64,000 bases of DNA from Haliotis rufescens (Eukaryota). The stretch is from positions 46,252,001-46,316,000 of the forward strand of contig NW_025963780.1 of NCBI RefSeq assembly GCF_023055435.1, given 5' to 3'. A program made the position numbers. Each line of letters begins with the position of its first letter. The stretch's first letter is position 1. Below are positions 1 through 3,000 of the stretch, in pieces.

Positions 1-3000
1 TACACACCTATCTCCGGGTTATCCTCAACCCCTGTACTCACCTTTCTCCGGGTTATCCTCATCACCTGTACACACCTATCTCCGTGTAATCCTCTACGTT
101 AAACCTGTACTTGCCTGTCTCCAGGTAATGCTCAACGTTACACCTGTACTCACCTGTCTCCAGTTTATCCTCAACGTTACACCTTTACTCACCTGTCTTC
201 GGGTTATCCTCAACGTTACCCCTGTACTCACCTTTCTCCGGATAATCCCCAATGTTACACCTGTACTCACCTGTCTCCGGGTAATCCTCAACGTTACACC
301 TGTATTCACCTTTCTCCAGGTTATGCTCAACCCCTGTATTCACCTGTCTCCGGGTTATCCTGAACCCCTGTACTCACCTGTCTCCGGATTATCCTCATCG
401 TTACCCATGTATTCACCTTTCTGCGGGTTATTCTCAACCCCTGTTCTCACCTTTCTCCGGGTTATCCTCATCCCCTGTACTCACCTTTCTCCGGATTATC
501 ATCAACGTTACCCCTGTATTCACCTTTCTCCGGGTTATCCTCAACCTCTCTACTCACCTTTCTCCTGGTTATCCTCATCCCCTGTACTCACCTTTCTCCG
601 GGTTATCCTCATCCCCTGTACTCACCTTTCTCCGGGTTATCCTCAACGTTACACCTGTATTCACCTTTCTCCGGGTTATCCTCAACCCCTGTATTCACCT
701 TTCTCCGGGTTATCTTCAACTCCTGTGCTCACCTGTCTCCTGGTTATCCTCAACCCCTGTGCTCACCTTTCTCCGGATTATCATCAACGTTACCCCTGTA
801 TTCACCTTTCTCCGGGTCATCTTCAACTCCTGTGCTCACCTGTCTCCTGGTTATCCTCAACCCCTGTGCTCACCTTTCTCCGGGTTATCCTCAACCCCTG
901 TACTCACCTTTCTCCGGGTTATCCTCAACCCCTGTACTCACCTTTCTCCGGGTTATCTTCAACTCCTGTGCTCACCTGTCTCCTGGTTATCCTCAACCCC
1001 TGTGCTCACCTTTCTCCGGGTTATCCTCAACGTTACACCTGTACTCACCTGTCTCCGGGTTATCCTCAACGTTACACCTGTACTCACCTGTCTCCGGGTT
1101 ATCCTCAACGTTACACCTGTACTCACCTGTCTCCGGGTTATCCTCAACGTTACACCTGTACTCACCTGTCTCCGGGTTATCCTCAACGGCTGCATCATCA
1201 CCTGCCACAGGACGCTCTCAGACAAAGTGGGCGTTGTCAGAGAACCGTATAAGTAGTAAAAGTCACGTGATGAGGGAAGTAATTGGTCTGGGTTAAAGGT
1301 CACGTTTGAGCCACCTGAAATGAATTCAGTAACTTTCTGAGTGATTCACTTTTATGAATTAATAATATTACCCCGTCATTCATGCTACGTGCATTAAGTT
1401 AAAATGTTATTATGCCAGACGCCTTCATGTTTTCGTGCAGACGAGTCAATATTCATCACGTGACGTTCAATATTGATGATGTGACGAGTCAATATTTGAG
1501 ATCAATGTCAGTCACATGATTTGGAGTCTACATTGAAAAGTATTGTTTCGTCACGTGGTACGGATCAACCAATGGAATTGCAGGATTCAAAATATCAAAT
1601 GTAATTTCCTAATATTGGATATTTACCATCCCCCAAAACAGTCGTGGGATAACTTTTATTCTACCATGACTGTGAAGAACGCTTAAGTCAGATTGACCAA
1701 TGTAAGAGTAAAAGCAATTTTTAGTGATAATTGTTGCATTAAAGTCCCCCATTTCACACCATACAGTGACTCCTTGTAAACCCTCACTGTGTCAGGAAGT
1801 ATACAGTGATGGCAGATAAATTCAAGCTGAAGAGATCAACTAATACCTAAATAAACACTGACTTAACTTACTTTTGGATTAAATTGTTTCTAACAACTAG
1901 TAATTAGATCTCAATTAATAAATTTTGTAAAAAACATTTTGATAATATCACAAATCCCACTGTTCTTTTCTATGTTGTTGGGGATTGTTGACGAAAACAA
2001 ACACAACATATGCCGTACACGAAGTGTGGATCGCGACTCACCGCAACTGCCAAACCCAGACCTCCAGTGTGGACAAGCATTCCGAGCTGCCATTCTGCTC
2101 ATCATCCGGCTCGCCATGGCTCCTGTACACAGTTCTTCCGTACACACATCACCTGCAACAGACATGTGGCTCAAGAACAGTGATCCTCATAACATAGTTC
2201 ATCTATTATATCTCTATATATACGGATCCCCACTATGCATCTCGTCTCCACACATCTCCCGGTTAATATACAGCCCATCTGTACGGATCCTCACTACACC
2301 GCGCATCTATATGGATCCTCACTTCACCGCTCTTTTATATGGATCCTCACTACACCGCTCATCTATATGGATCCTCACTACAACGCTCATATGTATGGAT
2401 CCTCACTACACCGCTCATCTATATGGACCCTCACTACACCGCTCATCTATATGGATTGCCACTTCATAGCTCATCTATATGGATCCTCACTACACCGCTC
2501 ATCTATATGGATCCTCACTACACTGCTCATCTATATGGACCCTCAGTACACCGCTCATCTATATGGATCCTCACTACACTGCTCATCTATATGGATCGCC
2601 ACTTCATAGCTCATCTATATGGATCCTCACTACACTGCTCATCTATATGGATCCTCACTACACCGCTCTTCTATATGGACCCTCACTACACTGCTCATCT
2701 ATATGGATCCTCACTACACCGCTCATCTATATGGACCCTCACTACACCGCTCATATGTATGGATCCTCACTACACCGCTCATCTATATGGATCGCCACTT
2801 CATAGCTCATCTATATGGATCCTCACTACACCGGTCATCTATATGGATCCTCACTACACAGCTCATCTATATGGATCCTCACTACACCGCTCATCTATAT
2901 GGATCGCCACTTCATAGCTCATCTATATGGATCCTCACTACACCGCTCATGTATATGGATCCTCACTACACCGCTCATCTATATGGATCCTCACTACACC

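What the first reader, a model, noticed from the sequence alone, without database searches (positions are those of the whole stretch)
1..1187. Tandem array built from a live splice donor: ~33 consecutive 5' splice sites
Seen: the repeat unit is the last ~22 nt of CA exon 7 plus the first ~12-17 nt of the intron, so the minus strand has (C/A)AG|GTGA(G/A) every 34-39 bp. The proximal units are 39 bp and stop-free, so each of the next four donors (the first three identical to the real one) would add VSTGVTLRITRR(Q/K) in frame; distal 34-bp units would shift frame. Inference: either the spliceosome picks the first of several identical donors, or the enzyme has a copy-number-tunable basic insertion.
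Basis: partly seen in the sequence, partly recalled or inferred. Interest (0 to 1): 0.7.

Follow-up and report, generated by a model that had tools for sequence, protein, structure and literature searches.

The report
Abalone intron minisatellite repeating a splice donor
In an abalone carbonic anhydrase gene, a short stretch spanning an exon-intron border has been copied about 33 times into the intron, so it carries a row of look-alike splice donors; this kind of repeat is already known from human genes and from amphioxus, where the first donor is normally the one used.

Summary
Window 1-1187 (minus strand) is a tandem array of 32 full units plus one partial unit (14 of 39 nt, 18 of 34 nt). 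Unit 1 is the real end of coding exon 7 of an alpha-carbonic anhydrase gene plus the start of its intron. 30 of the 32 full units keep (C/A)AG|GTGA(G/A). Donors at 1127, 1088 and 1049 are identical to the real one at 1166. Those three and 1010 are in frame and stop-free.

The window is abalone (Haliotis), not human. The gene is the ortholog of the mantle enzyme HdhCA II.

The kind is known. Human F7 intron 7, IFI6 (6-16), CBS, LMNB2 and PDGFA, and the amphioxus "mirages", are minisatellites whose first unit spans an exon-intron border.

All four Haliotis ortholog proteins found run ...RRQ/RKQ/REQ straight into L(T/A)xIR(T/A)MET with no 13-aa insert. The relative's cDNA encodes 349 aa, the same length as the closest ortholog. 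First-donor use is therefore the best-supported reading. A copy-number-tunable insertion has no support, but it cannot be excluded without RNA data.

A second array (6873-8312) is built the same way from the acceptor of exon 5. 79% of the gene span in the window is minisatellite, so two such captures are within chance (P about 0.05-0.17).

Verdict: a new member of a known kind, of modest interest.

The parts
1..1187 (-). Tandem array of 32 full units plus 1 partial unit (39 or 34 nt). Each unit is the exon 7 tail (about 21-23 nt) plus the intron head (13-18 nt). The array is cut by the window's left edge.
   Evidence: TRF; unit parse
1166..1314 (-). Coding exon 7 (149 nt) of the alpha-carbonic anhydrase gene. 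It encodes (G)GSNVTFNPDQLLPSSRDFYYLYGSLTTPTLSESVLWQVMMQPLRITRRQ. Its last 23 nt form the exon part of array unit 1.
   Evidence: Pfam PF00194 6.6e-11, 42.7 bits against a cutoff of 27; 98% identity to P0001; boundaries; PDB carbonic anhydrase VII alignment ending ...PISISERQ
1160..1168 (-). Authentic 5' splice site CAG|GTGAGT. The last exon base is 1166 and the first intron base is 1165.
   Evidence: ortholog junction RRQ|LTD
1010..1165 (-). Four proximal 39-nt units, in frame and stop-free. Pseudo-donors follow 1127, 1088 and 1049 (identical to the real site) and 1010 (AAG|GTGAGC). Each would add 13 aa, VSTGVTLRITRR(Q/K).
959..961 (-). First stop codon (TGA) in the exon 7 reading frame. Every pseudo-donor from the 7th unit onward lies beyond it. 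The 6th (976) lies before it but is out of phase (+190 nt).
1..1009 (-). Distal, diverged part of the array (units 6-33). It mixes 34- and 39-nt units and contains non-adjacent identical units, which point to block duplication.
2042..2152 (-). Coding exon 6 (111 nt). It encodes a Cys-rich insertion that is conserved in Haliotis and not matched by the carbonic anhydrase profile.
6805..6880 (-). Coding exon 5 (76 nt). Its first 11 nt form the exon part of the acceptor-built array.
6873..8312 (-). Second junction-built array: 45 units (mostly 30 or 29 nt). Each unit is the intron tail ...CTGTTACAG plus ACACGTCA(C/A)GG, the first 11 nt of exon 5. The last unit is the real acceptor.
   Evidence: TRF
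26044..26124 (-). Coding exon 4 (81 nt), MHLVHVRDGG...VAVFLS.
27013..27182 (-). Coding exon 3 (170 nt), containing ...LHIHVGKTGSRHGTEHRVFGKRYDGE.
35249..35413 (-). Coding exon 2 (165 nt), containing ...GGSNQSPVRIYP...
35857..36025 (-). Coding exon 1 (169 nt), with the ATG at 36025 and a signal-peptide-like N-terminus.

Best explanation
This is an intronic minisatellite of the "junction-spanning" kind, as in human F7 intron 7 and the amphioxus "mirages".

**Origin.** A 39-nt piece that straddled the exon 7/intron 7 border of an abalone secreted alpha-carbonic anhydrase gene (ortholog of HdhCA II) was duplicated in tandem into the intron. It then expanded by slippage or unequal exchange, partly in multi-unit blocks. 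The real exon end is simply the first unit.

**Consequence.** The pre-mRNA carries about 33 donor-like sites spaced 34-39 nt apart. The mature mRNA is made from the first one. Donors 1-4 are identical from -23 nt through more than 100 nt downstream. The choice therefore cannot be made on local sequence. It must be positional: the first donor met after the exon (exon definition, or 5'-to-3' "oriented scanning").

**The other sites.** They are silent decoys. If they leak, the next four give in-frame +13/26/39/52-aa forms, and all later ones give frame-shifted or stop-containing transcripts.

**Why it exists.** The array is most likely a near-neutral by-product of an extremely minisatellite-prone locus.

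**Shown:** the anatomy, the frames, the gene identity and the ortholog junction.
**Inferred:** the origin by duplication, first-donor use in this species, and neutrality.
For: - **Anatomy.**
- **Host gene intact in the window.** Seven coding exons total 921 nt, which is 307 codons and matches P0001 residues 1-307. All introns are GT-AG. Pfam Carb_anhydrase matches three exons.
- **Orthology.** Published H. gigantea cDNA primers match 19 of 19 at 1189-1207, and 18 of 20 at the end of exon 4 with the last 2 nt crossing into exon 5.
- **Ortholog junction.** In 4 of 4 Haliotis proteins the junction is ...Q|L(T/A)xIR(T/A)MET with no insert. HdhCA II cDNA from mantle encodes 349 aa, the same length as P0001.
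- **No protein with the insert.** The search with exon 7 plus four units returned 3 hits, all covering only 49-50% of the query.
- **No special selection on the donor motif.** Mean column conservation is 0.89 for the 9 donor columns against 0.93 for the other 25 shared columns (computed by hand from the column table).
- **Block growth.** Identical non-adjacent units are [5,9], [6,10,13], [8,16] and [17,32]. TRF also finds a 107-nt period.
- **Locus context.** 79% of the gene span and 73.5% of the window are tandem arrays. A second array is built from the exon 5 acceptor.
- **Junction amplification.** 2 of 13 splice-junction 24-mers are amplified (30 matches each) and 11 of 13 are unique. A random-seed simulation gives P(>=1 junction-spanning array) of 0.33-0.56 and P(>=2) of 0.05-0.17.
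- **Precedent.** F7, IFI6, CBS, LMNB2 and PDGF (PMC1557585 abstract, Introduction and Discussion). Amphioxus mirages at both 5' and 3' borders with normal splicing by RT-PCR (PMC3087553 passages; PMC3902484 passage). A polymorphic 27-bp intronic minisatellite in another abalone gene (PMC6905558 passages).
Against: - No transcript data for this species or this allele were available, so first-donor use rests on orthologs whose own introns I could not see. They may lack the array.
- The decoy donors are strong: 8 of 9 positions match the consensus MAG|GURAGU quoted in PMC1557585.
- The array RNA is less structured than shuffles (MFE -87.3 against -106.5 +/- 5 kcal/mol, z = +3.83). Nothing in the sequence hides the decoys.
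- IFI6 and CBS show that the two proximal pseudo-sites can be used constitutively.
- Units 1-4 are 100% identical, and the proximal units of both arrays are multiples of 3 nt. This could hint at selection for harmless leakage rather than pure neutrality.
- The chance model is crude: it assumes uniform seeds and covers one gene.
Confidence: 0.75

Rival explanations
1. IFI6-type multi-donor use. Besides 1166, the proximal pseudo-donors (1127, 1088, 1049, 1010) are used at an appreciable level. This would give enzyme isoforms with 13-52 extra, basic residues (VSTGVTLRITRR[Q/K] repeated) about 42 residues before the C-terminus. The number of possible isoforms would depend on the copy number of in-frame units.
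For: - The four proximal units are in frame and stop-free.
- Three of their donors are identical to the real one.
- The array RNA is unstructured.
- The exon would remain 188-305 nt long (arithmetic).
- The same protein already tolerates a lineage-specific insertion exon inside the carbonic anhydrase domain. P0001 matches Pfam in 2 stretches, and exon 6 itself has no Pfam hit.
Against: - 4 of 4 Haliotis ortholog proteins lack any insert.
- The relative's mantle cDNA encodes 349 aa.
- No cluster representative covers the insert.
- The insertion point lies inside the conserved ...P(I/L)xI(S/T)xxQ | L..(F/I)R segment of the carbonic anhydrase domain.
- In F7, with 37-bp spacing close to the 39 bp here, pseudo-sites are not used at all.
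Confidence: 0.17
2. A functional decoy or enhancer array. The reiterated U1-binding sites would be kept because they help the gene. They might strengthen recognition of exon 7, suppress premature cleavage in a long repeat-filled intron, or act as spare donors that rescue splicing in frame if the first donor mutates.
For: - The core AG|GTGA is nearly invariant: 31-32 of 32 units at each of the six columns.
- The F7 work shows that pseudo-sites are functional and take over when upstream sites are inactivated.
- PMC1557585's reference list cites an intronic enhancer that binds U1 snRNPs (McCullough & Berget 2000; seen only as a reference).
Against: - The donor 9-mer as a whole is no better conserved than the rest of the unit (0.89 against 0.93, by hand). 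Many non-donor columns are also invariant, as expected from concerted evolution.
- 7 of 32 units carry the weakening +5 G>A and 7 of 32 have a +6 change (6 T>C, 1 T>A).
- Eleven of 12 arrays in the gene have no donor content, so array formation here needs no functional explanation.
Confidence: 0.05
3. An assembly artefact: the array, or its copy number, was created or inflated by mis-assembly of repetitive long reads.
For: - Minisatellites are prone to copy-number errors.
- Four perfectly identical units sit next to the exon.
- PMC3087553 notes that one amphioxus mirage was aberrantly assembled in the draft genome.
Against: - The array shows structured internal divergence: 82% matches, two length classes and block-wise identical units. 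Artefactual duplication would not create that.
- Eleven other arrays in the same gene show the same texture.
- Reads were not available.
Confidence: 0.03

Closest known systems
Human F7 intron 7 37-bp VNTR (Borensztajn et al. 2006, PMC1557585; abstract, Introduction and Discussion read)
   Same: It is a minisatellite whose first monomer spans the exon 7/intron 7 border. The authentic donor is therefore followed by identical pseudo-donors at a similar spacing (37 against 39 nt). Only the most upstream site is used, and the pseudo-sites are functional when it is inactivated.
   Different: - F7 has 5-9 copies, with only 4 exon nt in the unit and a weak site (UGG/gugggu).
- The array here has at least 33 units, 21-23 exon nt per unit and a strong site (CAG/GTGAGT).
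- Here the units come in two length classes and the distal copies have diverged.
- Splicing behaviour was not measured here.
Human IFI6 (6-16) intron 2 minisatellite and CBS intron 13 31-bp VNTR (Turri et al. 1995; Yang et al. 2000; known to me only as described and cited in PMC1557585; PMC306954 is not held)
   Same: The exon/intron junction is reiterated (25 pseudo-sites in IFI6, 15-20 repeats in CBS).
   Different: No evidence of pseudo-donor use was found here. Only the four proximal units here are in frame.
Amphioxus "mirages" (Adh3, TnC, globins BflGb6/9, PGBD5; PMC3087553 and PMC3902484 passages read; Canestro et al. 2002 seen only as a reference, PMC117041 not held)
   Same: [quoted passage not shown] Many copies carry AG/GT signals, splicing is normal by RT-PCR, and they show concerted evolution and length instability. 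This matches the pair seen here: the donor array at exon 7 and the acceptor array at exon 5.
   Different: - The phylum differs (Mollusca against Cephalochordata).
- The copy numbers quoted for BflGb6 (3 and 6) are far lower than the 33 and 45 here.
- The BflGb units are 150-160 bp, against 29-39 nt here.
- In BflGb6 the cluster boundary units were excluded from homogenisation. Here the boundary unit is identical to its three neighbours.
Human LMNB2 and PDGF(A) junction-reiterating repeats (de Stanchina 1997; Bonthron 1999; known only as described in PMC1557585)
   Same: [quoted passage not shown] Only the authentic donor is used.
   Different: The units are longer (100 and 81 bp) and the copies fewer (10-18).

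Membership tests
Junction-spanning intronic minisatellite (F7-IVS7 type / 'mirage') | Head-to-tail tandem array of a 10-100+ nt unit inside an intron | tested here: met
   TRF finds 32.9 copies, period 34 (also 107), score 1198-1300. My parse finds 32 full units plus 1 partial.
Junction-spanning intronic minisatellite (F7-IVS7 type / 'mirage') | The first monomer spans the exon-intron border, so exon-terminal bases and the splice site are reiterated in the intron | tested here: met
   Unit 1 is the last 21-23 nt of exon 7 plus 16-18 nt of intron, and units 2-4 are identical to it. The junction 24-mer has 30 matches with up to 4 mismatches, against 1 for 11 of the 13 junctions.
Junction-spanning intronic minisatellite (F7-IVS7 type / 'mirage') | Reiterated copies keep a consensus splice signal (pseudo-sites) | tested here: met
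   30 of 32 full units carry MAG|GTGAR, one carries CAG|GCAAGT and one TAG|GTGTGT.
Junction-spanning intronic minisatellite (F7-IVS7 type / 'mirage') | Splicing normally uses the authentic (boundary) site and the pseudo-sites are silent | not testable with these tools
   The evidence is only indirect. 4 of 4 ortholog proteins lack an insert, and the relative's cDNA encodes 349 aa. No RNA data for this species were available.
Junction-spanning intronic minisatellite (F7-IVS7 type / 'mirage') | Copy number is polymorphic between alleles or individuals | not testable with these tools
   Only one haplotype is in hand. The four identical proximal units suggest recent turnover. Another abalone intronic minisatellite is polymorphic (PMC6905558).
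IFI6-type multi-donor minisatellite producing in-frame isoforms | The unit length is a multiple of 3 and open in the exon frame | tested here: inconclusive
   This holds for the 4 proximal 39-nt units. It does not hold for the 18 units of 34 nt. The stop at 959-961 ends the frame.
IFI6-type multi-donor minisatellite producing in-frame isoforms | Transcripts or proteins made from pseudo-donors exist | not testable with these tools
   No transcript collection was available. The protein search found no representative covering the insert (3 of 3 hits at 49-50% coverage).
Recursive splice site (ratchet point) | A 3' splice site (pyrimidine tract plus AG) juxtaposed to GTRAGT | tested here: not met
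   AG|GTGAGT is present, but the 20 nt upstream (GTTGAGGATAACCCGGAGAC) are purine-rich, with 7 of 20 pyrimidines (read from the unit). The definition of the ratchet-point consensus is recalled, not taken from a call.
Alpha-carbonic anhydrase (Pfam PF00194), the host gene | Profile match above the gathering score | tested here: met
   Exon 7 alone scores 42.7 bits against a cutoff of 27. The exon 3 and exon 2 pieces match weakly: 21.1 and 15 bits, below the cutoff taken singly. The ortholog P0001 scores 132.5 bits.
Alpha-carbonic anhydrase (Pfam PF00194), the host gene | Three zinc-binding histidines | tested here: met
   LHIHVG is in exon 3 and MHLVH in exon 4. Assigning these as the ligand positions rests on recalled knowledge of alpha-carbonic anhydrases and on PMC8138131's statement that the three His are conserved in HdhCA II.

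The most novel reading that the evidence does not exclude
Abalone genes, like amphioxus genes, may be systematically prone to "mirage" formation. Tandem duplication would be seeded preferentially at splice junctions, for example by transcription- or spliceosome-linked breaks. On this reading the arrays of dozens of live splice sites are not inert. The in-frame proximal units of both arrays in this shell-forming carbonic anhydrase would give copy-number-dependent isoforms, or act as in-frame spare splice sites. That would make the locus a natural, polymorphic 33-donor/45-acceptor test bed for how an invertebrate spliceosome chooses among identical sites.
Probability: 0.1. Interest if true: 0.6.

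Novelty: new member of a known kind. Interest (0 to 1): 0.3.

Why it matters
The finding mainly matters as a clean natural experiment. Four donors are identical over more than 100 nt of context, followed by about 28 graded variants. In the same gene there are 45 tandem acceptors.

If mantle RNA shows exclusive use of the boundary sites, the "most upstream donor wins" rule worked out on human F7 would extend to a mollusc, and to a far longer array. If proximal sites leak, a biomineralisation enzyme would have length-variable isoforms tied to a hypervariable repeat.

There are also two practical points:
- Gene predictors may mis-call exon 7 and exon 5 borders in such loci.
- The array is a likely hypervariable marker inside a shell-formation gene of an aquaculture and conservation genus.

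My four literature searches aimed at this turned up no report of junction-spanning minisatellites in molluscs. They cover only the held open-access library.

Tried and rejected
- **Plus-strand reading of the array.** All three plus frames are open across it (416, 323 and 310 aa), but 0 of these 3 ORFs has a Pfam family. The open frames follow from a unit that lacks stop triplets on that strand. Rejected as coding.
- **Structured RNA.** Rfam at gathering thresholds gives 0 matches in the whole window. Folding exon 7 plus six units gives z = +3.83, less stable than 100 of 100 shuffles. Decoy donors are therefore not masked by structure.
- **Recursive splice sites.** Rejected, because there is no pyrimidine tract upstream of AG|GT.
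- **Special conservation or decay of the donor motif within the array.** Neither is seen (0.89 against 0.93).
- **Clear higher-order period in unit identities.** There is only a faint rise at lags 3-4 (0.886 and 0.884 against 0.853-0.873 at other lags).
- **Excess of junction-spanning arrays over chance.** Not significant in a crude simulation (P(>=2) of 0.05-0.17).
- **Search for a database protein carrying the 13-aa repeat.** None was found among cluster representatives.
- **The listing of cluster members on P0001.** The 4 members of that cluster, which might include isoforms or this species' own protein, stayed unseen.
- **Turri 1995 (PMC306954) and Canestro 2002 (PMC117041).** Not held.
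- **Other genes near the array.** None was found. The only other Pfam-supported ORF is a Tc1/mariner-like transposase at 44154-45029. Weak hits inside other arrays are repeat-translation noise.

**Not done**
The orthologous introns of other Haliotis species stayed unchecked.
- Supplementary files (for example the mirage alignments of PMC3087553 and S2 Fig of PMC6905558) are closed and were not seen.
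Full report
**What the window is.** The window contains no N and has 44.6% G+C. 73.5% of it is covered by the major tandem arrays that Tandem Repeats Finder lists. The peptide of the exon next to the finding is 98% identical to "carbonic anhydrase 1-like" of Haliotis cracherodii. It is 82-84% identical to the H. rubra, H. asinina and H. tuberculata proteins.

**Check of the observation.** TRF reports one array at 1-1187: period 34, 32.9 copies, 82% matches, score 1198, with an alternative 107-nt period. 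The minus strand shows the following:
- There are 32 full units and a partial 33rd cut by the window edge. 14 units are 39 nt and 18 are 34 nt.
- Unit 1 is TTGAGGATAACCCGGAGACAG|GTGAGTACAGGTGTAACG.
- Its left part is the end of the coding exon (...CAG CCG TTG AGG ATA ACC CGG AGA CAG, which reads ...QPLRITRRQ).
- Units 2-4 are identical to unit 1 over all 39 nt.
- Donor-like sites end at 1166, 1127, 1088 and 1049 (CAG|GTGAGT), at 1010 (AAG|GTGAGC), and then every 34 or 39 nt.

30 of the 32 full units carry (C/A)AG|GTGA(G/A). The two exceptions are CAG|GCAAGT and TAG|GTGTGT. 30 of the 34 MAGGTGAR matches in the 64-kb window lie in this array. Shuffles of the whole window give 10.7 +/- 3.7 matches, and 0 of 100 reach 34.

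The exon frame stays open through the four proximal units, each adding VSTGVTLRITRR(Q/K). It ends at a TGA at 959-961. The sixth donor (976) is at +190 nt and out of phase, and later donors lie beyond the stop.

**The host gene.** Pfam places the exon in Carb_anhydrase (6.6e-11, 42.7 bits, cutoff 27). It also finds two more exon pieces, at 27013-27182 and 35249-35413. I used tblastn with P0001 and read the borders directly. This gives seven coding exons on the minus strand:

| Exon | Coordinates |
|---|---|
| E1 | 36025-35857 |
| E2 | 35413-35249 |
| E3 | 27182-27013 |
| E4 | 26124-26044 |
| E5 | 6880-6805 |
| E6 | 2152-2042 |
| E7 | 1314-1166 |

All introns are GT-AG. The phases are consistent and sum to 921 nt, which is 307 codons and equals P0001 residues 1-307. 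I established this exon by exon. I did not build, translate or search a joined model.

The last ~42 residues (LTDIRTMETRF... in P0001) must lie left of the window. E6 encodes a Cys-rich segment that is present in all four Haliotis proteins but outside the carbonic anhydrase profile. P0001 matches the profile in two stretches, and E6 alone has no hit.

Primers published for cloning "HdhCA II" from H. discus hannai mantle were designed on H. gigantea cDNA AB500104.1. They match the window 19 of 19 in E7, and 18 of 20 at the end of E4 with the last two bases crossing into E5. This gene is therefore the ortholog of that secreted, mantle-expressed enzyme (PMC8138131; abstract and passages read).

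**Which donor is used.** I had no RNA data for this species. The indirect evidence all points to the first donor:
- The four ortholog proteins run ...RITRRQ|LTDIRTMET...KITRKQ|LALIRAMET...KINREQ|LARIRAMET and ...KITRKQ|LAHIRAMET, with no insert.
- The H. discus hannai cDNA encodes 349 aa, exactly P0001's length.
- A search of the 5.8-billion-protein set with exon 7 plus four units returned only P0001-P0003, each covering 49-50% of the query.

Whether those other species carry the array is unknown.

**What can and cannot distinguish the donors.** Donors 1-4 share identical sequence from -23 through more than 100 nt downstream. Only what lies upstream, the exon body and the order of appearance, can set the first apart. 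The region is not hidden in structure. Exon 7 plus six units folds to -87.3 kcal/mol, against -106.5 +/- 5 for shuffles (z = +3.83; 100 of 100 shuffles fold better).

Within the array the donor 9-mer is no better and no worse conserved than the rest of the unit (mean 0.89 against 0.93, computed by hand from the column table). The core AG|GTGA is nearly invariant, but so are many other columns. 7 of 32 units have +5 G>A, and 7 of 32 have a +6 change (6 T>C, 1 T>A). I read this as concerted evolution without selection aimed at the splice signal.

**How the array grew.** Units 1-4 are identical. Beyond them identity to unit 1 is 82-97%. Non-adjacent identical units ([5,9], [6,10,13], [8,16], [17,32]) and TRF's 107-nt period point to duplication of multi-unit blocks, that is unequal exchange as well as slippage. 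The perfect proximal block suggests very recent turnover next to the exon. That makes copy-number polymorphism likely, but this is an inference.

**Surroundings: the array is not alone.** 79% of the gene's span in the window (28,528 of 36,025 nt) is made of 12 TRF arrays. One of them, 6873-8312, is the mirror image of the finding. It has 45 units, mostly 30 or 29 nt. Each unit is the intron tail ...TGTCCCTGTTACAG plus ACACGTCA(C/A)GG, the first 11 nt of exon 5. The last unit is the real acceptor at 6881|6880.

Upstream acceptors at 6910 and 6940 are in frame and stop-free (TRHGLISLLQ, TRHGLHSLLQ). The next, at 6969, shifts the frame.

Testing 24-mers centred on all 13 splice junctions gave two amplified junctions, the E7 donor and the E5 acceptor, with 30 matches each at up to 4 mismatches. 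The other 11 are unique.

Is two too many for chance? I collapsed the arrays and dropped 12 seeds of the observed unit lengths at random on the remaining 7.5 kb. This gives P(>=1 junction-spanning seed) of 0.33-0.56 and P(>=2) of 0.05-0.17, depending on the overlap required. In so repeat-prone a locus the captures need no special mechanism, although the model is crude.

**Comparison with what is known.** The phenomenon is described.

[quoted passage not shown] It has five to nine identical donors, of which only the most upstream is used. The pseudo-sites are functional when upstream ones are inactivated, and the authors call the mechanism 5'-to-3' oriented scanning. Its Introduction lists further genes:
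- CBS intron 13, where two pseudo-sites are used.
- LMNB2 and PDGF, where only the authentic site is used.

In amphioxus, tandem duplications of intron/exon borders are called "mirages". They occur at both 5' and 3' borders, keep AG/GT signals, do not disturb splicing in RT-PCR, and are unstable in length (PMC3087553 passages; PMC3902484 passage). Polymorphic intronic minisatellites are also reported in abalone itself, but not at a junction (PMC6905558 passages).

Spacing and architecture here are closest to F7.

The differences here are:
- the phylum;
- the number of copies, at least 33 donors and 45 acceptors in one gene;
- the strength of the reiterated donor, with 8 of 9 positions matching the MAG|GURAGU consensus quoted;
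- the identity of the boundary unit with its neighbours.

My searches for a molluscan report found none. They cover only the held open-access library.

**Verdict.**
- The structural interpretation is right.
- The "first donor" alternative is best supported, though only indirectly.
- The "tunable insertion" is unsupported but open.

It is a new member of a known kind: a junction-spanning minisatellite, or "mirage". It sits in an intact shell-formation carbonic anhydrase gene in an exceptionally minisatellite-rich stretch of an abalone genome. Interest is modest (0.3). Its value is as a natural model for splice-site choice and as a warning for gene prediction.

The following stayed unchecked:
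- RNA evidence for this species;
- read support for the array;
- the orthologous introns of other Haliotis species;
- the members of P0001's cluster;
- the papers' supplementary files;
- the two older primary papers that are not held.

Noticed in passing
window 6873-8312 (-), ending in exon 5 at 6880: A second array is built from a live splice junction of the same gene. It has 45 tandem copies of the exon 5 acceptor (...CTGTTACAG|ACACGTCA(C/A)GG), and the real acceptor is the last unit. The two nearest upstream acceptors (6910, 6940) are in frame and stop-free (+10 aa each). The third (6969) shifts the frame.
   Followed up: yes
window 1-36025 (gene span) and the whole window: Minisatellite load is extreme. 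12 TRF arrays fill 79% of the carbonic anhydrase gene span, and 73.5% of the 64-kb window is tandem array. This includes a 15.6-kb array of 21-mers (47795-63380), an 8.9-kb array of 54-mers (9115-18002) and 251 copies of a 22-mer at 96% identity (20270-25792).
   Followed up: partly
window 2042-2152 (-), coding exon 6: Exon 6 encodes a 36-37-aa Cys-rich segment (DVCTEELCTGAMASRMMSRMAARNACPHWRSGFGSCG). It is present in all four Haliotis carbonic anhydrase proteins retrieved but lies outside the Pfam profile, and it splits the domain match into two stretches. It looks like a lineage-specific insertion exon inside the enzyme fold.
   Followed up: partly
window 44154-45029 (-): There is a 292-aa open frame with DDE_3 (1.2e-16) and HTH_Tnp_Tc3_2 (1.3e-8) domains. 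It is a Tc1/mariner-type transposase remnant or copy, about 8 kb upstream of the carbonic anhydrase start codon. A 22-nt x 6.5 array overlaps its 5' end, at 44983-45126.
   Followed up: no
window 26904-26998 and 26681-26920 (-), intron after exon 3: A 13-nt array (7.3 copies) begins only about 15 nt downstream of the exon 3 donor (27013|27012) without including it. It is overlapped by a perfect 120-nt x 2 duplication. This is a near miss of the same junction-capture process.
   Followed up: partly
window 942-947, 806-811, 699-704 (-), array units 7, 11 and 14: Three distal units read TTGAAG (Leu-Lys) where the exon and most units read TTGAGG (Leu-Arg). Lys is the residue at this position in the H. 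rubra, H. asinina and H. tuberculata proteins (LKIT/LKIN). This could be a fossil of an older exon sequence or a simple G>A coincidence.
   Followed up: no
window 27461-27468 (-) and 36120-36127 (-): Two further CAG|GTGAG sites sit outside the array. One is in the intron upstream of exon 3 (ttcatcag|gtgagtac). The other is about 95 nt upstream of the start codon. They may be donors of an alternative or 5'-UTR exon.
   Followed up: no
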